A DNA stretch of 64,000 bases from assembly GCA_002773535.1 (NCBI GenBank), contig PFAZ01000001.1, forward strand, positions 241,579 through 305,578, read 5' to 3'. The notes below the pieces were generated by a model. The model did not search any database, was not told where the DNA came from, and saw nothing but the letters and a program-made list of their open reading frames with translations. Of this stretch, positions 15,847 to 26,969 are shown piece by piece (the first letter of the stretch is position 1; the number at the start of each line of letters is the position of its first letter). Source of the DNA: Candidatus Harrisonbacteria bacterium CG10_big_fil_rev_8_21_14_0_10_40_38. GTDB taxonomy: Bacteria > Patescibacteriota > Minisyncoccia > UBA6257 > 1-14-0-10-40-38. Made by a program: the position numbers and the translations under genes.

Positions 15847-16956
15847 CTAAAAAGATTTAAATTGTTTTGAAAGTCTTGGTGCATTAAATAACGAAGCATA
15901 ATTTGAATCTGGTAATATGTCGTAAGAAAGACTCGGTACTTCTGCCATTCTTTCAAATCTAATTTTCGCAACAGGTTGGTTTTTGCGAAAAGTAAGTGGT
16001 TCAAAAGGCCTTACCTCAAGAACAAGCCTCCTACCAACACCATCTCCACCATTTCCATACCCCCAACCAGGATCAATATACCCAGCATAATGAGAACGAA
16101 ACTCACCCGATCTGGCATCCATAGGAATCATTTCGCAAGCAAGATGAGATGGCACACGGACACATTCATCCGTCTGGAGTATATAAAATCTCCCCTGACG
16201 CAATTTAATAATCCCATCACGAGCCGCAATCGGACGAAAAAACTCTTCAGGTTCATACGCACCAATTTTAGAAAGATCCAAGATCTTATCTCCCTCAAGA
16301 CTCTCCCATCCAGAAATTTCAGAAGAAATCGCCAAAGTCAGTATTATAGAACCATCGCCATCCTTAACTGAAAAATTTTTATATTCAAATGGTTTTTGAG
16401 AGTCAAATTCCCAAAGAAGTTTATCCTTGTCAAAACTTTCAGTAAGATCATTTTCATTAAAACCCGTATCACTATTAAAAAATCTTATTTGCGAAAGAGA
16501 CATTCCATTCTCCATTTTAATAGCAAAAGAATTCGGCTGGATCACAAGCCAAAGTTCACCCGAGAAACCAGCGGGAGCAACAGTATCAAATCTCGACACA
16601 CCATCGGCGATAACACGAACCTGAATATCGTTTCTGCCTACACTCGATTTTGGATTACAATATGCAAAAACATCAGCCGGAAGTTTTAAAGACTCAGAAA
16701 GTTTCACAATATACGTCACTCCCCGCTCTAAAGGGGAAGAAATATTGTGAGGCAAAGCAGAAACAAGAGGAAGAAGATCCCGAACTTTCTCCCCGGATCG
16801 CGGCTGAAAAATTCCATCAATCCTATAAATCTCATCACTAATAGCAAGATCAAGTGAAGCAGGACGAATCCGTTTGGTATCTGATCCTTCAATCGAAGAA
16901 GAGTCCATGAGAGCACGAATCATTTGAGATGAAAAAGCACCAAAGCGATTAGGCAT
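15847..16956 (-). CDS. dcd: long-form dCTP deaminase family protein (dUTPase-fold)
   Basis: IRPASLDLAI near the N-terminus and GYIDPGWGY...LVLEV...P..L..G..VAKIRF near the C-terminus match the dCTP deaminase trimer motifs. About 370 aa with a middle insertion. Start set at the internal Met (16954-16956). Confidence 0.6.
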   Translation of the reverse strand: MPNRFGAFSSQMIRALMDSSSIEGSDTKRIRPASLDLAISDEIYRIDGIFQPRSGEKVRDLLPLVSALPHNISSPLERGVTYIVKLSESLKLPADVFAYCNPKSSVGRNDIQVRVIADGVSRFDTVAPAGFSGELWLVIQPNSFAIKMENGMSLSQIRFFNSDTGFNENDLTESFDKDKLLWEFDSQKPFEYKNFSVKDGDGSIILTLAISSEISGWESLEGDKILDLSKIGAYEPEEFFRPIAARDGIIKLRQGRFYILQTDECVRVPSHLACEMIPMDARSGEFRSHYAGYIDPGWGYGNGGDGVGRRLVLEVRPFEPLTFRKNQPVAKIRFERMAEVPSLSYDILPDSNYASLFNAPRLSKQFKSF

Positions 16957-17090
16957 ATGCCATATATTAGCACTCAAATAATCGCAATAAAAGCACAACA
17001 AAAATTTGACAAAATACACATTTATCAATAATCATATACTCGACACCTAAAGAACTCACACAAACTCTTTCATAGAAAAGGTCGGATAAG

Positions 17091-17324
17091 GTGGCTGAAA
17101 AGGCACGAGAAGAACTGGAAAAAATGTTTGATAATGTCGGCCTATTTTCCGAAGGTTTGGCAGTGGTTGAAAAGGATGGGAAAGAATTTCATATCCGACA
17201 TGATGGCTCTCCTGCATACGAGGAAAGGTTTGACAGCGCTAACTCCTTCTCTGAGGGAGTAGCATCTGTCAAAAAAGATGGCAAGTGGTTTAACATCCGC
17301 TACGACGGCACAAGAGTCGACTGA
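17091..17324 (+). CDS. small WG-repeat-like protein
   Basis: Two repeats of FSEG(L/V)A(V/S)V(E/K)KDGK(E/W)F.IR.DG. 77 aa. Followed by a terminator. Confidence 0.45.
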   Translation: MAEKAREELEKMFDNVGLFSEGLAVVEKDGKEFHIRHDGSPAYEERFDSANSFSEGVASVKKDGKWFNIRYDGTRVD

Positions 17325-17350
17325 CTCTATTTCTCTTCTCCAAACAACAA

Positions 17351-17388
17351 GCCGCCCCATCTCACATGAGGCGGCCTTCTTTTTTTCT
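17351..17388 (+). terminator. rho-independent terminator
   Basis: gccgcc ... ggcggcc hairpin followed by ttctttttttc. Confidence 0.55.
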
Positions 17389-17435
17389 AACCCCACAAAA
17401 GGCACAGCAAAAAATATCAATTACTAAAACAAAAA

Positions 17436-17573
17436 CTTCCCCGTATTACTCTATAGAGGCTATCGGAGGCAAAATGCAACATTGGTATCTCTAAAATTAC
17501 ATTTTGCCGAGATGCAGGAGTCACTCACTGCTCAAAGTGAGTGAACTCCGACTCTAGAGAGTAATATGGGGAA
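17436..17573. repeat. structured repeat element Y, copy B
   Basis: Core 17458..17551 is near-identical to 1858..1950. Its own closing stem cttccccgtattactctatagag / ctctagagagtaatatggggaag is about 23 bp with 2 mismatches. It lies directly downstream of the rplK stop, where rplA would normally be. Confidence 0.6.
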
Positions 17574-17586
17574 GAAAAACTCTTCA

Positions 17587-18012
17587 CTATTCTGTAATTT
17601 CTATTCCCATATTTTTTGCTGTGCCTGCAACAATCTTCATTGCTTGCTCAACATTTTCCGTATTCAAATCAGGTAGTTTAATTTCGGCTATAGCCTTGAG
17701 GTCAGCTTTCGTGACCTTGCCAACTTTCTTTTTATTCGCTTCCGATGAACCTTTTTCAACTGAAGCATATTTCTTAAGCAAAGCCGATGCCGGAGGAGTC
17801 TTTAAAATAAATGAAAAGCTCCTATCGTCATAAATAGTTATTTCAGCAGGAACAACGTCACCTGTCATGTCTTTTGTGGCGTCATTAAACTGCTTACAAA
17901 AATCCCCAATATTTATTCCATGAGGACCAAGAGCTGTTCCAACAGGAGGCGCGTGGTTTGCCTTTCCCGCCTCAAGCTGTAGCTTTAATACTGTTTTTAT
18001 TGGCTTTGACAT
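17587..18012 (-). CDS. rplK: 50S ribosomal protein L11
   Basis: N-terminus [35 protein letters not shown] matches L11. Confidence 0.9.
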
Positions 18013-18096
18013 AATTTATGTCACTAGATAGTAACGAAATAATTAAAAATTTGCAAGTCCAAAACTAATGGCTTATCCCTAGCAACTAGAACCTCG

Positions 18097-18678
18097 TTAT
18101 ATCTTCTGCACCTGCAACGAATCAAGTTCTATCAAAGTATCTCTTCCGAATATCGGCACCAAAACTTTGACCTTGCCCTTTTCGCCATCAACTTCAGCAA
18201 CCTTGGCATCATAGTCTTTAAACGATCCGTCAGTGATCTTCACAAGATCCCCTACTTTTATATCAACATTAAACTTCGTATCCTTCTCTTCCATCCTCAC
18301 CATGATTGCATCAACTTCCTCTTTTGAAAGAGGCACTGGAGTTGTAGCATCAGGACCGACAAACCCAGTAACTCGTGGGGTGTTTCGAACAACATACCAC
18401 GAGTCATCAGCGAGTATCATATCAACGAGAACATACCCATGATAAATTTTCTCCTCTGTAACTCGCCTTTTACCGTTTTTGATTTTTACTTTTTTCTCTT
18501 TTGGGACAATAACATTAAAAATCTTGTCATTCATGGCAAGAGAGTCAACACGCTGTTTGAGGTATCTCGCAACAGCGTCCTCATATCCAGAATACGTATG
18601 GATTGCATACCAGTGCCTATTTGACTTCTGATCTTCTTCCTTTAGGTTTTTATCTCCTTTTAAAAGACGGTTTTCCAT
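18097..18678 (-). CDS. nusG: transcription termination/antitermination factor NusG
   Basis: NGN domain WYAIHTYSGYEDAV and C-terminal KOW (VGDLVKITDGSFKDYDAKV). Confidence 0.85.
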   Translation of the reverse strand: MENRLLKGDKNLKEEDQKSNRHWYAIHTYSGYEDAVARYLKQRVDSLAMNDKIFNVIVPKEKKVKIKNGKRRVTEEKIYHGYVLVDMILADDSWYVVRNTPRVTGFVGPDATTPVPLSKEEVDAIMVRMEEKDTKFNVDIKVGDLVKITDGSFKDYDAKVAEVDGEKGKVKVLVPIFGRDTLIELDSLQVQKI

Positions 18679-18682
18679 AAAA

Positions 18683-18871
18683 TTAACCGATAATAAATAT
18701 TTCTAATACTCTGGTAAATCCAAAATCAAGAACACCAAGAAAAGCAGCGAGTCCCAAAGAGAACCCGATAACAATAAATGTTAGCTTTCTGGTCTCAATA
18801 AATGTAGGCCAGTTGATCCTCTTAAACTCCCTGCGGGATTCCTGAAGATAATTTGTAAGACGTTCAAACAT
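18683..18871 (-). CDS. secE: preprotein translocase subunit SecE
   Basis: KRINWPTFIETRKLTFIVIGFSLGLAAFLGVLD: single TM, SecE-like. Start at the internal Met (18869-18871). Sits in the canonical secE-nusG-rplK order. Confidence 0.75.
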   Translation of the reverse strand: MFERLTNYLQESRREFKRINWPTFIETRKLTFIVIGFSLGLAAFLGVLDFGFTRVLEIFIIG

Positions 18872-18896
18872 ATTCGTAAAATAACAATTATAGTGG

Positions 18897-20945
18897 CTAT
18901 ATGTCAAGATTTTTTACCGACAGAGCATGTGCCTGAATAAACTTCTTTCTTGGCTCAACAGTCTCTCCCATAAGCACGCTAAACAATCTATCCGCCTCTG
19001 TAGCATCCCCAACCTCCACAAGCTTCAAAACCCTAGCCTCGGGATCCATTGTAGTTTCCCAAAGCTGCTGTGGGTTCATCTCTCCCAAACCTTTATACCT
19101 CTGAACAAAGATTCCTTTCATTCTACCATCACCAGTTTCCAAAGAAACCTCTTCGGTATTTTCTGCATCCGTCACTTCAACCTCTTCCCCCTTGGCTTTC
19201 TTCTTTGCTGAAGCCGCCTGCCTCTCTTTCTTTAATGCCTGAAGTTCATCAATAGCTTTATCTTTAGCTCCTTCATTAAATACATATCTAAAAGACTTTC
19301 CTGCCTGAACCTTAAAGAGTGGCGGCTGCGCGATATACAAATGACCGGCATCAATTATCTCACGGAAGTACCTGTAAAACAGGGTAAGCAAAAGAGTCCT
19401 GATATGAGCGCCATCAACATCAGCATCAGTCATGATGATGATTTTATGATATCTAAGTTTTGAAATATCAAACGACTCAGCGATAGCGGTGCCGATCGCG
19501 ACAACCAACGCCTTTATCTCTTTATTGATAAGCATCTTATCAATCCTCGATTTTTCAACATTCAAAATTTTTCCCTTTAAAGGCAATATTGCCTGTGTCC
19601 TCCTATCACGACCGGATTTTGCGCTACCACCAGCAGAGTCTCCCTCTACTATAAACAGCTCAGAATCTTCCGGACTTCGTGAAGTGCAGTCTGCAAGTTT
19701 ACCGGGAAGAGTAAGTCCTTCGAGAACCCCTTTTCGAAGAACCATGTCCTTCGCCGCTTTTGCAGCTTTTCTCGCCTTTACGGCAAGAAGAGATTTTTCG
19801 ATGATCCTTCTTGCATCAGAAGAATTTCTTTCAAGAAAATCTTTCAGAGACTCACCCACAACTGACTCAACTGCAGTGCGCGCTTCGGTGTTCCCAAGAC
19901 GCGCCTTTGTCTGACCTTCAAACTGTGGTTCGCGAAGCTTAACCGAAACAATAACCGTAAGACCCTCACGAACATCATCACCTGTAAAACCATCATCTTC
20001 TTTTTTAAGAAGATTATTTGAACGAGCATATTCATTTAAAGTTCTGGTAAGAGCCGACCTAAAACCAGTCATATGCATTCCGCCATCGGGAGTATAAATA
20101 TTATTTGCAAAACTTAACTCTTTAGATTCATATTCGTCGTTATAAACAAAAGCCACCTCAACCCCCATATCGTTCTGCTGTTTATCTACATAAAAAAGAT
20201 TATCTAAAAGCGATTTTTCTGAACGACTAAGATATCTAAGAAAAGACGCGAGCCCGCCATCAAAACAAAATCCATGATAAACCGGCACCTCTCCTCGCGA
20301 GTCTATTATCTCGATTGCAATTCCTTTTGTAAGGAACGCCTGTCGCCTCAAGTGGTCAACAATTCTTTTTAAATCAAATTTGGTTTCAGAAAAAATAGTA
20401 TGATCCGGCTGGAAGATTATCTTCGTTCCGGTACTTTTACTAGATCCTATTTTTTTAACCTTGGTTTTTGGAACACCACGTTCATATTCCTGCTCATAGA
20501 CTCCACCATCACGAGAAACCTCAGCACGAAGCCATACAGACAATGCACATACAACCGAAACACCAACACCGTGGAGACCTCCTGAAACCTTATAAGACTC
20601 GCCTCCAAATTTACCTCCGGCATGAAGCGTTGTAAGAACAGTCTCCAGTGCAGACTTTTTTGTCTGTGCATGAACCTCAACCGGAATACCGCGTCCATCA
20701 TCAGTTACAGCAACTTTATTGTCAGGTAAAAGCTCCACCCGAATATGCTTCGCGTGTCCTGCCATTGCCTCGTCAATCGAATTATCAACGACCTCCCAGA
20801 TAAGATGGTGAAGACCGTCTACACCCGTCGAGCCAATATACATACCCGGTCTCTTTCGAACCGGCTCTAAACCCTCAAGAACGTATATGTCCTTGGCTGA
20901 ATATGATGGCTTTTTTTCTGCCTTTTTCTCGTCTTTTTCCGCCAT
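18897..20945 (-). CDS. gyrB: type IIA topoisomerase subunit B (DNA gyrase B; parE not excluded)
   Basis: N-terminal GHKL domain VRKRPGMYIGSTG...HLIWEVVDNSIDEA. Toprim and C-terminal domains present. 682 aa. No gyrA adjacent. Confidence 0.75.
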   Translation of the reverse strand: MAEKDEKKAEKKPSYSAKDIYVLEGLEPVRKRPGMYIGSTGVDGLHHLIWEVVDNSIDEAMAGHAKHIRVELLPDNKVAVTDDGRGIPVEVHAQTKKSALETVLTTLHAGGKFGGESYKVSGGLHGVGVSVVCALSVWLRAEVSRDGGVYEQEYERGVPKTKVKKIGSSKSTGTKIIFQPDHTIFSETKFDLKRIVDHLRRQAFLTKGIAIEIIDSRGEVPVYHGFCFDGGLASFLRYLSRSEKSLLDNLFYVDKQQNDMGVEVAFVYNDEYESKELSFANNIYTPDGGMHMTGFRSALTRTLNEYARSNNLLKKEDDGFTGDDVREGLTVIVSVKLREPQFEGQTKARLGNTEARTAVESVVGESLKDFLERNSSDARRIIEKSLLAVKARKAAKAAKDMVLRKGVLEGLTLPGKLADCTSRSPEDSELFIVEGDSAGGSAKSGRDRRTQAILPLKGKILNVEKSRIDKMLINKEIKALVVAIGTAIAESFDISKLRYHKIIIMTDADVDGAHIRTLLLTLFYRYFREIIDAGHLYIAQPPLFKVQAGKSFRYVFNEGAKDKAIDELQALKKERQAASAKKKAKGEEVEVTDAENTEEVSLETGDGRMKGIFVQRYKGLGEMNPQQLWETTMDPEARVLKLVEVGDATEADRLFSVLMGETVEPRKKFIQAHALSVKNLDI

Positions 20946-21067
20946 TAAACTCTAAAAAACTAAATAAAAACGCCGAAAAGCGCACATTCATTATACCAAA
21001 CCCACCTCAAAAAAGAAAGAGAAAAAAGCTGTAAGTTTTTAGTCTTAAGTTTTTAGCTGTCAGTTAT

Positions 21068-22270
21068 CTATCGTACTTCCGCCCCAAGATCCTCTCCCAC
21101 CATTTTCTCAACTTCAGAATGAATCTTATTTACTTCTTCGTTTGTAAGCGTCCTCTCATGAGAACGATAAACTATCCTAAACGTATAGCTCTTCCTGTCA
21201 GCTCCAAATTTTTCATCATTTTCATACTCATCTGTCATAGCGACCTCTTCAACTAAGTCCCCTGCAAGATGTCTTACGATTTCATAAAACCTGTTTAACG
21301 AAGTTTTTTTAGAAACTATAAAAGATATATCTCTCACAACTTCAGGATATTTGCTCACAGAGGCATATTTACTATTCAAGGAAACAAACTGCTTTGTGAC
21401 TCTTGGGTCTTCCGACCAAAAAATCCTAATGTCCGGAATATCCATCTTCACCATCGCAAGCCGCTCTATTCCAAAACCAAATGCCCATCCGGTATATTTT
21501 TCCGAATCTATCCCAAGTCGCTCCAAAACATTTTTATGAACTACACCGGCTCCCACAACTTCTAGCCATTTGTCACCCCACTTTATTTCTATCTGCGTGC
21601 TCGGATCCGTAAAAGGAAAAGTATCTCCCAAAAATTTATAAGTTATATCTTCTCCAAAAACCGCTTTCACAATATTTGCAAGAACTCTCTGTAAATCATC
21701 AAGCGTGATTTCTCCCTTCTCCCGTTTCTGAATATATAACCCATCAATCTGATGAAATACAGGAAAATGCTTGCTGTCTATCTCGTCTTTTCTATAAACC
21801 TTTCCATAACAAAGCTCTCCGATCCACCCACGTTCCGAAAGAAGTTTTTGAACATCCGGATCAGTAAGATAATAAAGCCACATCGAAGTCGTGTGTGTCC
21901 TAAGCACCCTATCTTCCCCTATAAAATACGTATCACTAGTATTTCTACTAGGATGATCCTCTGGAAAATTAAACAAATCAAAACTATCGCTAACCGTAAG
22001 AGTCTCCGGAGTTTTTACAACATCAAATCCTTTAAAATCATCTATCGCGAGAATTTCATCGATAACAAATTTTATCGGCGAGCTTTCTTTTCTTGACAAA
22101 TCAGGTAAAGCCAAAAGCCGCTTAAACCGAAGCGCATCAAAATCATCCCGAGACTCAATCTCAGAAAGTATTTTCTCCTCCACCCCATCACGATAAATAA
22201 TCTCCCTACCTCCAGTTGAATCATCGGTATCTAAAATATCTTTTTTAAAATCAAAATTCCGCTTTTCCAT
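21068..22270 (-). CDS. pheS: phenylalanyl-tRNA synthetase, single-chain mitochondrial-like type (catalytic alpha core plus a C-terminal FDX-ACB anticodon-binding domain)
   Basis: Class II motifs FPEDHPSR, LRTHTTS, GFGIERLAMV. The C-terminal 95 aa (KYPEVVRDISF...GDLVEEV...YTFRIVYRSHERTLTNEEVNKIH) resemble the FDX-ACB domain of organellar monomeric PheRS. No pheT is adjacent. Confidence 0.7.
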   Translation of the reverse strand: MEKRNFDFKKDILDTDDSTGGREIIYRDGVEEKILSEIESRDDFDALRFKRLLALPDLSRKESSPIKFVIDEILAIDDFKGFDVVKTPETLTVSDSFDLFNFPEDHPSRNTSDTYFIGEDRVLRTHTTSMWLYYLTDPDVQKLLSERGWIGELCYGKVYRKDEIDSKHFPVFHQIDGLYIQKREKGEITLDDLQRVLANIVKAVFGEDITYKFLGDTFPFTDPSTQIEIKWGDKWLEVVGAGVVHKNVLERLGIDSEKYTGWAFGFGIERLAMVKMDIPDIRIFWSEDPRVTKQFVSLNSKYASVSKYPEVVRDISFIVSKKTSLNRFYEIVRHLAGDLVEEVAMTDEYENDEKFGADRKSYTFRIVYRSHERTLTNEEVNKIHSEVEKMVGEDLGAEVR

Positions 22271-22362
22271 ACTCCTCTAAACTAGCAAAAGTAATGCATG
22301 CTAATCAAATGCAAATCAAAAAAGCAAAATTACAAAAGCGGCCCTCTAAAGCGACTCTCTAA

Positions 22363-24837: not shown

Positions 24838-24914
24838 TGGTGCCGGAGGCGAGAATCGAACTCGCGACCTTGGGTTTATGAGTCCCACGCTCTAACCAAC
24901 TGAGCTACCCCGGC
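24838..24914 (-). tRNA. tRNA with anticodon CAU (elongator Met or Ile-lysidine type)
   Basis: The reverse complement folds as a cloverleaf. Acceptor stem GCCGGGG/CTCCGGC with a G1-C72 pair, anticodon loop CTCATAA, T-arm GCGAG-TTCGATT-CTCGC, encoded CCA. Confidence 0.8.
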
Positions 24915-25202
24915 AGGAAAAAATTGTTAAATAATGATACTCCGAAGAGCAAGTAAATATGCACGCGAAGTCAGTATACTAAAACACGCCAAAAAACAAA
25001 ACACCATCTCAATATTTCTAATATAAACAATACGTTTTCAAAAAAATACAAACTTTCTTATATGAACTAGGTTATCTATTCAAAGAAGGTCTCTGAGATC
25101 TTGTTTTCAATGTGAATGAGGGTGTTTCTTTTAAAAAGCTTTCGGAAGCGCATGAAGCTTGGTTCCCACCCGCAGGGGTGGGATTCATGCGCTGAGAACG
25201 CA

Positions 25203-25243
25203 GGCGGTTACTTGCCGCAGGAGCAAGTAAACCGCCGTTTTTT
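25203..25243 (+). terminator. rho-independent terminator
   Basis: 13-bp stem ggcggttacttgc / gcaagtaaaccgcc followed by gtttttt. Confidence 0.6.
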
Positions 25244-25266
25244 AAAAGAAATATCCGAATGATTGT

Positions 25267-25336
25267 TGCGGGTGCAGGAATCGAACCTGCCCCTGGTGGT
25301 TATGAGCCACCCATGCACACCAGTACACCAACCCGC
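25267..25336 (-). tRNA. tRNA with anticodon CAU. A possible C1:A72 mismatch suggests an initiator type. No encoded CCA.
   Basis: Reverse complement: anticodon stem GGTGG/CCACC with loop CTCATAA. T-arm GCAGG-TTCGATT-CCTGC. D-stem TGTA/TGCA. 3' end ACA. Short D-loop. The exact ends are uncertain. Confidence 0.55.
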
Positions 25337-25379
25337 GATATATATTCTGTTTTACAAAAAACAGTATATACTTTGTAAC

Positions 25380-26699
25380 ATGAATAGCGCAACCCATCGT
25401 GTAGGAATCATAGGTTTCGGCAAAGAAGGTAGATCGCTATTTAACTACCTAAAAAAATCCAAAAAATATAAAAATAGCGATTTTTGGATATTAGACAAAA
25501 ATCCCAAGATAGAAATACCAAAAAACACAAACTCCCAAACCGGAAAAAGTTATCTAAAAAATCTGGATAAATTTGACACCCTATTCCGCTCCCCCGGCGC
25601 CCATTTTTTACTAAAAGAAATCCAGCACGCAAAAAAGAAAGGAGTAAAAATCGAAAGCGCTACAAAACTCTTTTTTGAAGAAATACCAAAGAAAAAAATT
25701 ATTGGTGTAACAGGAAGTAAGGGCAAGGGCACGACTGCAACCCTTATTCATAAAATGCTAAAAGCCTCAGGGAAAAAGGTTATCCTCGCAGGCAATATCG
25801 GCATCCCGATGACAGACACGATTCAAAAAGCAAAAAACACAGATTACATAGTTCTAGAGCTTTCAAGTTTTCAACTACAAGATCTAAATACTTCCCCACA
25901 CATTGCAGTTATATTAGACATGTTTCCAGAACACCTAGATGTTCACAAAAATATAAACGAATATTTAAACGCAAAAACAAACATCTACTCTCATCAAACA
26001 AAAGACGATAAAACATTTTATTTTAAAAATAACTCCCTCACAAAAAAAATTGCATCATACGGGAAAGGTAAAAAAATCGGTATAACCCCAAAAGAAAACA
26101 ATCTTACGAAAAATTTTGACATCGCATCTGCAGTCGCAGAATCTCTCGGTGTAAAGAAAAAAACAATCAAATCTGTACTTAAAAATTTTAAAGGGCGACC
26201 CCATCGTCTCGAAGTGGTTTTAGTCAAAAACAACATAACCTATATAAATGATTCCGCCGCAACCAACCCAGAAGCAACATCTGCCGCCATGAGAACTTTA
26301 ACTGAAAACCAAAAACAAGAAACAAAAGGTAAAAGTTTTAAGTCCGCAGTTTTCAGTTCAAAATCTCTGATTTTGATTGCTGGTGGATCAGATAAAAGAC
26401 TGGACTATGCACCACTTTCAAAAACAATACAAAAAGAAAAAAGCGTAAAGTTAGTAATCCTCTACGGTGAAAATAAAAATAAAATTGAAAAATCAATCCA
26501 AGAGTCACGAAAAAAAATTAAAATATCAAAATCAAAAAACCTCAAAGAAGCTTTCAAAGCAGCAAATGCTTTCGCAAAAAAATCAAAAGAAAATACAACG
26601 ATTCTACTCTCTCCTGCCTCTGCTAGTTTTGACCAATTCAAAAACTACGAAGACCGAGGTAATCAATTTAAAAAACTGGTAATGGATTTGAAAAAATAG
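25380..26699 (+). CDS. murD: UDP-N-acetylmuramoylalanine--D-glutamate ligase
   Basis: Mur ligase P-loop GVTGSKGKGTT. N-terminal Rossmann fold VGIIGFGKEG. The start is the internal ATG at 25380, because the upstream part of the ORF overlaps the tRNA. Confidence 0.75.
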   Translation: MNSATHRVGIIGFGKEGRSLFNYLKKSKKYKNSDFWILDKNPKIEIPKNTNSQTGKSYLKNLDKFDTLFRSPGAHFLLKEIQHAKKKGVKIESATKLFFEEIPKKKIIGVTGSKGKGTTATLIHKMLKASGKKVILAGNIGIPMTDTIQKAKNTDYIVLELSSFQLQDLNTSPHIAVILDMFPEHLDVHKNINEYLNAKTNIYSHQTKDDKTFYFKNNSLTKKIASYGKGKKIGITPKENNLTKNFDIASAVAESLGVKKKTIKSVLKNFKGRPHRLEVVLVKNNITYINDSAATNPEATSAAMRTLTENQKQETKGKSFKSAVFSSKSLILIAGGSDKRLDYAPLSKTIQKEKSVKLVILYGENKNKIEKSIQESRKKIKISKSKNLKEAFKAANAFAKKSKENTTILLSPASASFDQFKNYEDRGNQFKKLVMDLKK

Positions 26700-26732
26700 A
26701 TAGAGAAAGCTACTATAGGAAAAGGCAAAAAT

Positions 26733-26807
26733 GCGGTGGTAGCATAGCTGGCCTAATGCGCTGCCCTGTCACGGCAGAGATCGCGGGTTCAAATCCCGTC
26801 CACCGCG
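26733..26807 (+). tRNA. tRNA-Asp (GUC)
   Basis: Perfect acceptor stem GCGGTGG/CCACCGC. Anticodon loop CTGTCAC. Discriminator G73. T-loop TTCAAAT. Confidence 0.9.
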
Positions 26808-26969
26808 CAAAATACAAAGAGACACTCAAATTGTCTCTTTGTTTTTACAACAACGGGATTTGAACAAAGGGTGGGTCGGAGGGGACGCAACCGGGTCCCC
26901 TCCGTATAGGAAGTTATTTGAAACCGAGGGTTTCGAAAACGAAGATCTGATATAGATCGAGTTGTGAAA

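What the first reader, a model, noticed from the sequence alone, without database searches (positions are those of the whole stretch)
21068..22270. Single-chain, mitochondrial-type phenylalanyl-tRNA synthetase in a bacterial genome
The 400-aa protein combines the class II PheRS catalytic core with a C-terminal domain of about 95 aa. Core motifs are FPEDHPSR, LRTHTTS and GFGIERLAM. The C-terminal domain reads KYPEVVRDISF...GDLVEEV...RKSYTFRIVYRSHERTLTNEEVNKIH, and by motif order and spacing it resembles the FDX-ACB anticodon-binding domain. That domain normally sits at the end of the bacterial beta subunit (PheT) or of the monomeric organellar enzyme (FARS2). No pheT-like gene follows pheS in this window. 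In almost all bacteria pheS is followed by pheT and the enzyme is an (alpha-beta)2 tetramer. A monomeric PheRS would be an unusual, streamlined aaRS architecture for a bacterium.
Basis: partly seen in the sequence, partly recalled or inferred. Interest (0 to 1): 0.72.

Follow-up and report, generated by a model that had tools for sequence, protein, structure and literature searches.

The report
Single-chain PheRS replacing pheS-pheT in CPR bacterium
This ultra-small groundwater bacterium (Candidatus Harrisonbacteria) encodes the one-piece phenylalanyl-tRNA synthetase that textbooks assign only to mitochondria and plastids, and it sits where related bacteria keep the usual two-gene enzyme, so it is most likely the cell's own PheRS.

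Summary
ORF 21068-22270 (-) encodes a 400-aa protein with a class II PheRS core (Pfam E=2.5e-60) fused to an FDX-ACB anticodon-binding domain (E=1.6e-25). It passes NCBI's cut-off for mitochondrial-type PheRS (TIGR00469) and fails those for bacterial PheS and the 'SrmL' ligase. Its AlphaFold model matches human mitochondrial PheRS over the whole chain (TM 0.76). The window has no pheT or canonical pheS.

The gene is not a one-off. The source is a Candidatus Harrisonbacteria (CPR/Parcubacteria) MAG, and the best 120 homologues, all with this architecture, come from Parcubacteria, including two 0.56-0.63 Mb genomes.

Key evidence: a published gene table for another Paceibacteria genome (PMX.50) lists pheS-pheT-gyrB-secE-nusG-rplK-dcd. 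Here and in relatives the order is fused PheRS-gyrB-secE-nusG-rplK-dcd, so the fused gene occupies the pheS-pheT slot.

In NJ trees the bacterial fused clade is sister to the eukaryotic organellar clade. A 46%-identical homologue in a Bdellovibrionales MAG lies beside canonical pheS-pheT among radical-SAM genes, so an accessory role remains possible.

I could not scan the whole genome for pheT. None of my ten literature searches found a description of a bacterial single-chain PheRS.

The parts
21068..22270 (-). Gene for the single-chain (fused) phenylalanyl-tRNA synthetase, 400 aa plus stop codon
   Evidence: ORF. Pfam tRNA-synt_2d plus FDX-ACB. TIGR00469 above its cut-off. An identical protein is on record as hypothetical protein COU07_01515 of a Candidatus Harrisonbacteria MAG.
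22091..22270 (-). N-terminal 60 residues: a small beta/alpha module. It is not the coiled-coil tRNA-binding domain of bacterial PheS.
   Evidence: No PF02912 hit. AF2 predicts strands 9-15 and 22-27 and helices 29-40 and 44-54, with block pLDDT 72 for residues 1-10 and 86-94 beyond.
21386..22090 (-). Class II PheRS catalytic core (residues 61-295) with motifs 1, 2 and 3 and the Phe pocket
   Evidence: Pfam PF01409 at residues 61-295. Alignment to E. coli PheS maps F248/F250/T251/A294/R301 onto F218/F220/T221/A263/R270. All except F220 are invariant in 43 family members; position 220 stays aromatic, F or Y.
21356..21385 (-). Junction. The PheS C-terminal tail (..EDPRVTKQF) runs straight into a linker of about 10 residues.
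   Evidence: Canonical PheS proteins of E. coli, L108 and L012 end at ..(L/F)(K/E)QF, exactly where the fused proteins continue. Bacterial and eukaryotic fused proteins have the junction at the same place.
21071..21355 (-). FDX-ACB (B8-type) anticodon-binding domain, residues 306-400
   Evidence: Pfam PF03147 E=1.6e-25, full-length profile match. It matches the last 100 residues of pheT_bact TIGR00472 and PheT C-termini in the PDB.
22272..22277 (-). Shine-Dalgarno-like GAGGAG, 1 nt upstream of the ATG
   Evidence: Read directly from the sequence.
20970..20983 (-). Terminator-like hairpin followed by a T-run, between the PheRS stop codon and the gyrB start
   Evidence: Consensus scan only. TGGTATAAT lies just upstream of it. 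Function is not shown.
15847..20945 (-). Conserved downstream block gyrB (18897-20945), secE, nusG (18097-18678), rplK (17587-18012) and dCTP deaminase (15847-17028). This block defines the pheS-pheT slot.
   Evidence: Pfam of called genes. The same order follows the fused gene in L006, L008 and L010. The same block follows canonical pheS-pheT in PMX.50.
24838..26808 (.). tRNA-Met x2 (24838-24914 and 25265-25337, minus strand) and tRNA-Asp (26733-26808, plus strand), upstream of the PheRS gene. This trio is conserved next to the fused gene in related species.
   Evidence: ARAGORN and Rfam. The same trio lies upstream of the fused gene in L006, L008, L009 and L010.

Best explanation
The gene encodes the organism's working phenylalanyl-tRNA synthetase, a self-sufficient single polypeptide of the type known from mitochondria and plastids. 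Inferred from homology, the class II core (residues 61-295) binds ATP and phenylalanine, forms Phe-AMP and transfers Phe to A76 of tRNA-Phe. Also by analogy with human mitochondrial PheRS, the C-terminal FDX-ACB domain (306-400) swings on the short linker from a closed position on the core to an open one and reads the GAA anticodon. That job is done by domain B8 of the beta subunit in ordinary bacteria. The enzyme has no B3/B4 editing domain and no alpha-subunit coiled coil, so it should charge tRNA-Phe without post-transfer proofreading. It is a pheS core joined, right after the normal PheS C-terminus, to the last domain of pheT. In this lineage of Paceibacteria it sits in the chromosomal slot that holds pheS-pheT in a related lineage, so it most likely replaced the (alpha-beta)2 enzyme rather than supplementing it. 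Shown here: architecture, fold, conserved active-site residues, family breadth and synteny. Inferred: catalytic activity, monomeric state, and absence of pheS-pheT from the rest of the genome.
For: - Domains: PF01409 E=2.5e-60 and PF03147 E=1.6e-25.
- Family cut-offs: TIGR00469 is above its cut-off, while TIGR00468 and NF051887 are below theirs.
- Solved relatives: the best PDB sequence hits are human mtPheRS.
- Fold: AF2 pLDDT 91.9, and Foldseek to 3CMQ gives TM 0.76 and rmsd 2.9 over 388 columns, against TM about 0.5 for bacterial alpha subunits.
- Active site: Phe-pocket and ATP residues map onto E. coli F248/F250/T251/A294/R301 and are conserved in 43 homologues.
- Breadth: the best 120 hits, all with PF01409+PF03147, come from Harrison-, Wolfe-, Portnoy-, Pace- and Parcubacteria. 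They include genomes AP024682.1 (561,860 bp) and OZ246412.1 (626,281 bp), where the gene lies among ordinary housekeeping genes.
- Conservation: the protein is 57-65% identical between species whose GyrB, NusG and L11 are 63-79% identical.
- Synteny: fused-gyrB-secE-nusG-rplK occurs in the window, L006, L008 and L010. pheS-pheT-gyrB-secE-nusG-rplK-dcd occurs in Paceibacterales MAG PMX.50 (PMC9763046 supplement).
- Complementarity: the PMX.50 table, stored to at least gene 700, lists one K01889 and one K01890 gene and no fused gene.
- PheT search: the named hits in a search with a CPR-type PheT come from Woyke-, Collier-, Gottesman- and Magasanikbacteria. No hit shares a contig with a fused gene.
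Against: - The rest of the source genome could not be searched, so a second, canonical PheRS is not excluded.
- Four other Paceibacteria gyrB loci have neither gene type upstream of gyrB. The slot is therefore variable, and the PMX.50 match, though unlikely by chance, is a single comparison taken from a supplementary table.
- The closest non-CPR homologue (46% identity, L012) coexists with canonical pheS-pheT 4 kb away. This architecture can therefore serve as an accessory enzyme.
- The residue equivalent to the Glu that binds the amino group of Phe (E. coli E210) is Asp176 in this family.
- There are no biochemical data. Oligomeric state cannot be read from sequence.
Confidence: 0.8

Rival explanations
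1. It is an accessory PheS-like ligase, as in the Oligoflexia/Bdellovibrionales paralogue or NCBI's 'SrmL mystery ligase'. It would work beside a canonical PheS-PheT encoded elsewhere in the genome, for example supplying or using Phe-tRNA in a peptide-modification pathway.
For: L012 carries a 46%-identical fused homologue 4 kb from canonical pheS-pheT, among three radical SAM/SPASM genes, a U32-like gene and a carbamoyltransferase. P0122 from an Oligoflexia MAG is 50% identical. The window protein scores 244.9 bits on NF051887 SrmL. In OZ246412.1 a radical SAM gene and a faint Lant_dehydr_N-like gene lie within 8 kb of the fused gene.
Against: The score is below the 300-bit SrmL cut-off, and yeast-type mitochondrial Msf1 scores about the same (232) on that model. 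There are no radical SAM genes near the gene in the window or in L006-L010; the neighbours are gyrB, secE, nusG, rplK and tRNAs. The gene occupies the pheS-pheT slot. Keeping two PheRS in 0.56-0.63 Mb genomes is unlikely.
Confidence: 0.1
2. It is a true PheRS but not a stand-alone monomer. It would work as a homodimer, or with a separately encoded partner such as a trans-editing B3/B4 protein or a tRNA-binding protein.
For: All class II synthetases except organellar PheRS are oligomers (established knowledge; PMC9976931). Stand-alone B3/B4 editing proteins exist in bacteria (CtdA, abstract of PMC12268091 listed).
Against: No B3_4, B5 or tRNA_bind protein is encoded in the window or in the 20-kb neighbourhoods of the fused gene in the species examined. 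The single-chain model reproduces the closed state of monomeric human mtPheRS.
Confidence: 0.07
3. The gene is a recent capture of a eukaryotic organellar FARS2-type gene by this bacterium, not an old bacterial lineage.
For: It passes the mitochondrial TIGR00469 cut-off. Its FDX-ACB domain is closer to the organellar domains (34% identity) than to any sampled PheT B8 (26-27%).
Against: The bacterial sequences form their own clade (80-87% NJ bootstrap) beside the eukaryotic clade (86-88%), not inside it. That clade spans Parcubacteria, a code-25 CPR lineage and Oligoflexia. The bacterial proteins lack the insertion that splits the core match in eukaryotic proteins. GC content and neighbours are native.
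Confidence: 0.03

Closest known systems
Mitochondrial/organellar monomeric PheRS (human FARS2, yeast MSF1; TIGR00469; 'PheRS-M' of AARS Online)
   Same: Same two-module architecture: a PheS core without the N-terminal coiled coil, plus a C-terminal FDX-ACB domain and no editing domain. The fusion point is the same, right after the PheS ..KQF tail. The score is above the TIGR00469 cut-off. The whole chain superposes on 3CMQ with TM 0.76.
   Different: The host is a bacterium and the enzyme is its cytosolic one, with no targeting peptide. It lacks the roughly 30-residue insertion between motif 2 and the FPFT strand that splits the alignment to eukaryotic proteins. It belongs to a separate sister clade with about 39% core identity. 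Asp replaces Glu in the FHQxEG motif.
Bacterial (alpha-beta)2 PheRS, PheS (TIGR00468) plus PheT (TIGR00472), including the short CPR-type PheT without B1/B2
   Same: The catalytic core is 36% identical to E. coli PheS, with the same Phe-pocket residues. The C-terminal domain is homologous to PheT domain B8. The gene lies in the same chromosomal slot as pheS-pheT of PMX.50.
   Different: It is one gene instead of two. It has no Phe_tRNA-synt_N, B3_4 editing, B5 or beta catalytic-like module. It scores below the TIGR00468 cut-off. Canonical PheS sequences separate from all fused proteins in 100% of NJ bootstraps.
NCBIfam NF051887 'PheS-related mystery ligase SrmL'
   Same: It aligns end to end with the model, residues 81-391 against profile positions 32-346 of 349 (244.9 bits). 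SrmL is therefore also a PheS core plus an FDX-ACB-like tail found in prokaryotes.
   Different: The score is below the 300-bit cut-off. None of the CPR, Oligoflexia or eukaryotic sequences I tested reaches it. I found no paper on SrmL, so its biology could not be compared.
Fused PheS-FDX-ACB paralogue of Oligoflexia/Bdellovibrionales MAGs (L012, P0122)
   Same: It is the closest non-CPR relative at 46-50% identity, with the same architecture. It groups with the CPR clade at 80-87% bootstrap.
   Different: It coexists with canonical pheS-pheT on the same contig and sits among radical SAM/SPASM genes. There it is clearly an extra enzyme, not the housekeeping one.

Membership tests
Organellar-type single-chain PheRS (TIGR00469 / PheRS-M) | Scores at or above the curated whole-protein cut-off of the family model | tested here: met
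   265 bits against a cut-off of 258.35. Relative P0121 also passes (264.3). The code-25 CPR sequence (233.6) and the Oligoflexia sequences (206-215) do not.
Organellar-type single-chain PheRS (TIGR00469 / PheRS-M) | PheS catalytic core fused in one chain to a C-terminal FDX-ACB anticodon-binding domain | tested here: met
   PF01409 at residues 61-295 and PF03147 at 306-400.
Organellar-type single-chain PheRS (TIGR00469 / PheRS-M) | No alpha-subunit coiled-coil domain and no B3/B4 editing domain | tested here: met
   No PF02912, PF03483 or PF03484 hit.
Organellar-type single-chain PheRS (TIGR00469 / PheRS-M) | Overall fold and domain packing of human mtPheRS | tested here: met
   Model pLDDT 91.9. 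3CMQ gives TM 0.76/0.75 and rmsd 2.9 over 388 columns. The open tRNA-bound form 3TUP gives TM 0.57.
Organellar-type single-chain PheRS (TIGR00469 / PheRS-M) | Branches within the clade of organellar enzymes | tested here: not met
   NJ trees place it in a bacterial clade (80-87%) that is sister to the eukaryotic clade (86-88%), not inside it. NJ only, with limited outgroup sampling.
Organellar-type single-chain PheRS (TIGR00469 / PheRS-M) | Active as a monomer; charges tRNA-Phe with Phe | not testable with these tools
   Needs purified protein. Only the conservation of Phe-pocket and ATP residues could be shown.
Bacterial PheS alpha subunit (TIGR00468) | Scores at or above the curated cut-off | tested here: not met
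   193.9 bits against a cut-off of 237.45.
Bacterial PheS alpha subunit (TIGR00468) | N-terminal Phe_tRNA-synt_N coiled coil, and a partner pheT gene (usually adjacent) | tested here: not met
   No PF02912 hit. No pheT in the 64-kb window. The whole genome was not tested.
NF051887 PheS-related mystery ligase SrmL | Scores at or above the curated cut-off | tested here: not met
   244.9 bits against a cut-off of 300.
NF051887 PheS-related mystery ligase SrmL | Coexists with a canonical PheRS in a dedicated gene neighbourhood. This is my assumption from the family name and from the L012 case; no description of the family was found. | tested here: inconclusive
   The window neighbourhood is gyrB, secE, nusG, rplK and tRNAs, with no radical SAM genes. 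Coexistence with pheS-pheT in the full genome could not be checked.

The most novel reading that the evidence does not exclude
The single-chain PheRS of mitochondria and plastids and this bacterial enzyme descend from one pheS-pheT fusion that arose in bacteria. The fusion would be a deletion running from the pheS stop codon to the start of pheT domain B8, at the pheS-pheT locus of a Paceibacteria-like or Oligoflexia-like lineage. On this reading, eukaryotes acquired their organellar PheRS ready-made from such a bacterium, rather than inventing it after endosymbiosis as is usually assumed. A large part of the CPR radiation would then translate without any PheRS editing domain.
Probability: 0.2. 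Interest if true: 0.85.

Novelty: new variant of a known kind. Interest (0 to 1): 0.68.

Why it matters
PheRS is the textbook exception among aminoacyl-tRNA synthetases. It is an (alpha-beta)2 heterotetramer in all cellular cytoplasms, and the stripped-down monomer is treated as an organelle-only invention; reviews and databases I read list it as 'mitochondrial'.

If the fused enzyme is the only PheRS of Harrisonbacteria-type Parcubacteria, three things follow:
- A widespread group of bacteria runs cytoplasmic translation with a minimal PheRS that has no editing domain. This bears on how much Tyr or meta-Tyr mischarging a cell can tolerate, and on minimal translation sets.
- The organellar enzyme has prokaryotic sister lineages, which makes the origin of mitochondrial PheRS testable by phylogeny.
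- Marker-gene sets that expect pheS (TIGR00468) and pheT (TIGR00472) will under-score these genomes. The protein is also widely mis-annotated: NCBI calls it 'hypothetical protein' and JGI calls it 'alpha chain'.

Tried and rejected
- **Direct search for pheT in the source genome.** This is not possible with these tools. The one genome-contig scan went to the fused protein and returned 9 loci.
- **Finding CPR PheT seeds.** A viral-contig scan returned E. coli-like and Firmicutes-like PheT. A metagenome scan returned 80 ordinary PheT of about 800 aa. The seed finally came from the context of canonical PheS representative P0252: L108, with thrS-sua5-infC-rpmI-rplT-pheS-pheT.
- **Contig-length matching between PheT hits and fused-gene hits.** The only match (13,453 bp) was a coincidence; that contig has no PheT. 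A suspected link between P0230 (307,553 bp) and L006 (307,375 bp) was also a coincidence; P0230 sits in a Gram-negative-type neighbourhood.
- **Is pheS-pheT or the fused gene always upstream of gyrB in Paceibacteria?** No. Four further loci have neither.
- **Long representatives (500-870 aa) as possible editing-domain fusions.** Rejected. Their extra parts are TACO1, AlaRS or methyltransferase domains, or match no Pfam family, so they look like merged gene models.
- **SrmL membership.** Rejected on score.
- **T-box or other leader RNA upstream.** No Rfam hit.
- **ACB-domain tree.** Too short to resolve, with bootstraps near 0, so only mean identities are reported.
- **Literature.** Ten searches and targeted reads found no description of a bacterial single-chain PheRS. 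The library omits most subscription journals, so this is not proof of absence.
Full report
**1. The observation.** The ORF listing returns a 400-aa ORF at 21068..22270 on the minus strand. A GAGGAG ribosome-binding sequence lies 1 nt upstream of the ATG. Pfam finds the class II PheRS core (PF01409, residues 61-295, E=2.5e-60). It also finds a full-length FDX-ACB domain (PF03147, residues 306-400, profile 1-94 of 94, E=1.6e-25).

**2. Which kind of PheRS.**
- Against NCBIfam, the protein passes the curated cut-off of the mitochondrial-type model TIGR00469 (265 against 258.35 bits).
- It fails the bacterial alpha-subunit model TIGR00468 (193.9 against 237.45) and NF051887 'PheS-related mystery ligase SrmL' (244.9 against 300).
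- The best solved relatives by sequence are the human mitochondrial PheRS entries (E about 2e-60). Bacterial alpha subunits match only the core, and bacterial beta subunits match only the last 100 residues.
- There is no hit to the alpha-subunit coiled coil (PF02912) or to the B3_4 and B5 domains.
- An AlphaFold2 model built on 43 homologues is confident (mean pLDDT 91.9, pTM 0.89).
- Foldseek places the model on apo human mtPheRS 3CMQ over 388 columns (TM 0.76/0.75, rmsd 2.9 A). Bacterial alpha chains reach TM about 0.5, and the open tRNA-bound form 3TUP reaches 0.57.
- Alignment with E. coli PheS maps the phenylalanine-pocket residues F248, F250, T251 and A294 and the motif-3 arginine R301 onto F218, F220, T221, A263 and R270.
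- These residues, together with the HPSR, RTxTT, FHQxDG and GFGxER motifs, are invariant or nearly so in 43 family members.
- One difference stands out. The acidic residue that binds the amino group of the substrate is Asp176 rather than Glu.

**3. Surroundings.**
- The window is a typical CPR genome piece at about 40% GC. It carries SMC, DnaE, ThrRS, GatB, GatA, LigA, a type IV pilus cluster, TyrRS and TrmD, and it has no pheT or second pheS.
- tblastn with E. coli PheT and PheS hits only the ORF in question.
- The identical protein is on record as 'hypothetical protein COU07_01515' of a Candidatus Harrisonbacteria MAG from the CG10_big_fil_rev series. That places it in the Parcubacteria group of Patescibacteria.
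- Downstream on the same strand lie gyrB, secE, nusG, rplK and a dCTP deaminase.
- Upstream lie a small ORF of unknown function, a divergently oriented CofD-like gene, two tRNA-Met genes and a tRNA-Asp gene.

**4. How widespread it is.**
- The word-indexed search found 6881 relatives at E<=1e-20. The best 120 are all 367-428 aa, 56-69% identical, and carry both Pfam domains.
- Where they are named, they come from Harrison-, Wolfe-, Portnoy-, Pace- and Parcubacteria or 'Patescibacteria group'. NCBI mostly labels them hypothetical; JGI labels them 'alpha chain'.
- Two sit on what look like whole small genomes, AP024682.1 (561,860 bp) and OZ246412.1 (626,281 bp). Their neighbours there are ordinary and variable.
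- One GTDB locus (L011) reads through only with genetic code 25. Its UGA codons fall at conserved glycines such as GWAFG, so a Gracilibacteria-like CPR lineage has the enzyme too.
- In five species the tRNA-Asp/tRNA-Met/tRNA-Met trio precedes the gene. In six species gyrB follows it.
- Between these species the protein is 57-65% identical, while GyrB, NusG and L11 are 63-79% identical. It therefore evolves like a housekeeping gene.

**5. Is it the only PheRS?** I could not scan the whole genome, so I looked for indirect tests.

*(a) Published gene tables.* Supplements to two papers from one group list the genes of Paceibacteria MAGs. PMX_810_sub has a canonical pheT and pheS (PMC10936435). PMX.50 (order Paceibacterales, family UBA5633) has consecutive genes:
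- 00316 pheS, with the N-terminal domain
- 00317 pheT, with B3_4, B5, CLM and FDX-ACB
- 00318 gyrB
- 00319 secE
- 00320 nusG
- 00321 rplK
- 00322 dCTP deaminase

The window has exactly this block after the fused gene. The fused gene thus occupies the pheS-pheT slot. Locus tags 00313-00315 are missing from the PMX.50 protein table. They may be the three tRNA genes, but that is a guess.

The stored PMX.50 table reaches at least gene 700 and contains one K01889 and one K01890 gene. That genome therefore has the canonical pair and, in the stored part, no fused gene.

*(b) A search with a CPR-type PheT.* A CPR-type canonical pair turned up in L108: thrS-sua5-infC-rpmI-rplT-pheS(335 aa)-pheT(660 aa, no B1/B2). 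This matches the remark in PMC5370408 that many CPR PheRS-beta lack B2. A search with that PheT returned 120 short PheT proteins. The named ones belong to Woyke-, Collier-, Gottesman- and Magasanikbacteria, and none to the lineages that carry the fused gene. The single contig-length coincidence was checked and dismissed.

*(c) A caveat on the slot.* Four other Paceibacteria gyrB loci have neither gene type upstream. The slot is therefore not fixed across the class.

Taken together, replacement of pheS-pheT by the fused gene is the best reading. I put about 0.8 on the fused enzyme being the cell's working PheRS and its only one.

**6. The rival.**
- One GTDB locus labelled Bdellovibrionales (L012) carries a 46%-identical fused homologue. 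Canonical pheS (347 aa, with PF02912) and pheT (810 aa, with all domains) lie 4 kb away on the same contig.
- The fused gene there is embedded among three radical SAM/SPASM genes, a U32-like gene and a carbamoyltransferase. None of these neighbours reaches any curated NCBIfam cut-off.
- An Oligoflexia MAG protein (P0122) is 50% identical to the window protein.
- This architecture can therefore be an accessory enzyme, and NCBI's 'SrmL' model shows that curators have met such proteins.
- Against this reading for the window protein, it fails the SrmL cut-off. Even yeast-type Msf1 scores 232 on that model. The window neighbourhood has no radical SAM genes. The synteny argument points to replacement.

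**7. Relationship to the organellar enzyme.**
- An exhaustive HMMER search of 1.84 billion cluster representatives gave 400 hits at E<=1e-30.
- Among the best 150, proteins with an unbroken core match plus ACB include the bacterial ones. Those with a core match split by an insertion include Schizosaccharomyces osmophilus Msf1. A set of 345-372-aa proteins includes a Vitrella brassicaformis sequence, so that set is probably from protists.
- In NJ trees of 198 core columns, five canonical PheS sequences (including the CPR-type P0252) separate from all fused proteins in 100% of bootstraps.
- The bacterial fused clade (CPR plus Oligoflexia) has 80-87% support, and the eukaryotic clade (human, fission yeast, Vitrella) has 86-88%.
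- Mean core identity is 39% between CPR and eukaryotes and 38% between CPR and canonical PheS.
- The ACB domain of the CPR proteins is 34% identical to the eukaryotic domains and 26-27% identical to CPR-type or other PheT B8 domains. The short domain gives no bootstrap resolution.
- All fused proteins, bacterial and eukaryotic, continue from the exact end of canonical PheS (..KQF) through a 10-14-residue linker into the S-K-Y-P..R-D-I-S start of B8.
- This pattern fits a single fusion event, but domain boundaries could force the same junction twice.
- The trees are NJ only. They lack canonical Paceibacteria PheS and PheT, so the direction of transfer between bacteria and eukaryotes is open.

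**8. Comparison with what is known, and novelty.**
- The kind of enzyme is known: PheRS-M, FARS2 or MSF1.
- What appears new is a broad bacterial clade of it that serves, most likely, as the cytoplasmic housekeeping enzyme in the place of pheS-pheT.
- Reviews and databases I could read present the single-chain form as organellar. Ten literature searches found no bacterial case. The library is incomplete, so I cannot rule out an earlier report.
- I rate it a new variant of a known kind, with interest 0.68.
- The most novel reading not excluded is that eukaryotes obtained their organellar PheRS from a bacterium that had already made this fusion (probability about 0.2).

Noticed in passing
L011:10001-11140: This GTDB locus is labelled 'Candidatus Peribacteria', but its fused PheRS gene has 8 in-frame UGA codons under code 11. 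It reads cleanly under code 25, with UGA at conserved glycines (GWAFG, YGK). The contig therefore belongs to a Gracilibacteria/Absconditabacteria-type recoded lineage.
   Followed up: partly
L012:2460-15301: In a Bdellovibrionales MAG, canonical pheS-pheT is followed within 4 kb by an uncharacterised cluster. The cluster holds three radical SAM/SPASM genes, a 214-aa unknown, a fused PheS-FDX-ACB paralogue, a peptidase-U32-like gene and a NodU-like carbamoyltransferase. It may be a tRNA-dependent or Phe-dependent peptide-modification pathway.
   Followed up: partly
L017:1694-8626: In the 626-kb genome OZ246412.1, five genes lie just upstream of the fused PheRS on the opposite strand. They are a 273-aa unknown, a radical SAM protein, a 657-aa protein with a faint lantibiotic-dehydratase N-domain hit, a 308-aa unknown and a 640-aa AlaRS-like protein.
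   Followed up: no
L108:3921-6910: A CPR-type canonical PheRS operon (thrS-sua5-infC-rpmI-rplT-pheS-pheT) has a 660-aa PheT that lacks the B1/B2 tRNA-binding domains. The 120 best relatives are all 626-703 aa, apart from fragments and two Clostridium-type proteins of 792 aa.
   Followed up: partly
window:61466-63651: A DUF6996-DUF6997-DUF7226 protein (422 aa) is followed by a D12-class N6-adenine DNA methyltransferase. GC content rises to 0.44-0.45 over the last 4 kb of the window. This may be a restriction/defence or mobile island.
   Followed up: no
window:22432-22734: A small ORF (87-100 aa, depending on the start codon) lies immediately upstream of the PheRS gene on the same strand. It has no Pfam or NCBIfam match and is called as a gene in the four public contigs of this organism that cover it.
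   Followed up: partly
window:24838-26808: The longest ORF for the MurD-like ligase (25263-26699, TTG start) overlaps a tRNA-Met gene on the other strand. Public gene calls use a shorter 439-aa product. The tRNA-Asp/tRNA-Met/tRNA-Met trio is conserved upstream of the fused PheRS in five species.
   Followed up: partly
P0334, P0403 (GyrB homologues): Two GyrB relatives are 1024 and 1077 aa and carry an extra Pfam domain, PF14890, which from memory I take to be an intein-splicing domain (not checked here). One is from Candidatus Harrisonbacteria RIFCSPHIGHO2_01_FULL_44_13. Some members of this lineage may therefore have an intein in gyrB; the window's gyrB (682 aa) does not.
   Followed up: no
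window:15847-17028: The dCTP deaminase at the end of the syntenic block is a long two-domain form (393 aa, DCD_N plus DCD_C). In another Paceibacteria locus (L105) the gene next to rplK is a 217-aa form.
   Followed up: no
window:20970-21030: Between the PheRS stop codon and the gyrB start there is a TGGTATAAT extended -10-like element followed by a GC hairpin with a T-run. This could be the PheRS terminator or a gyrB leader.
   Followed up: no
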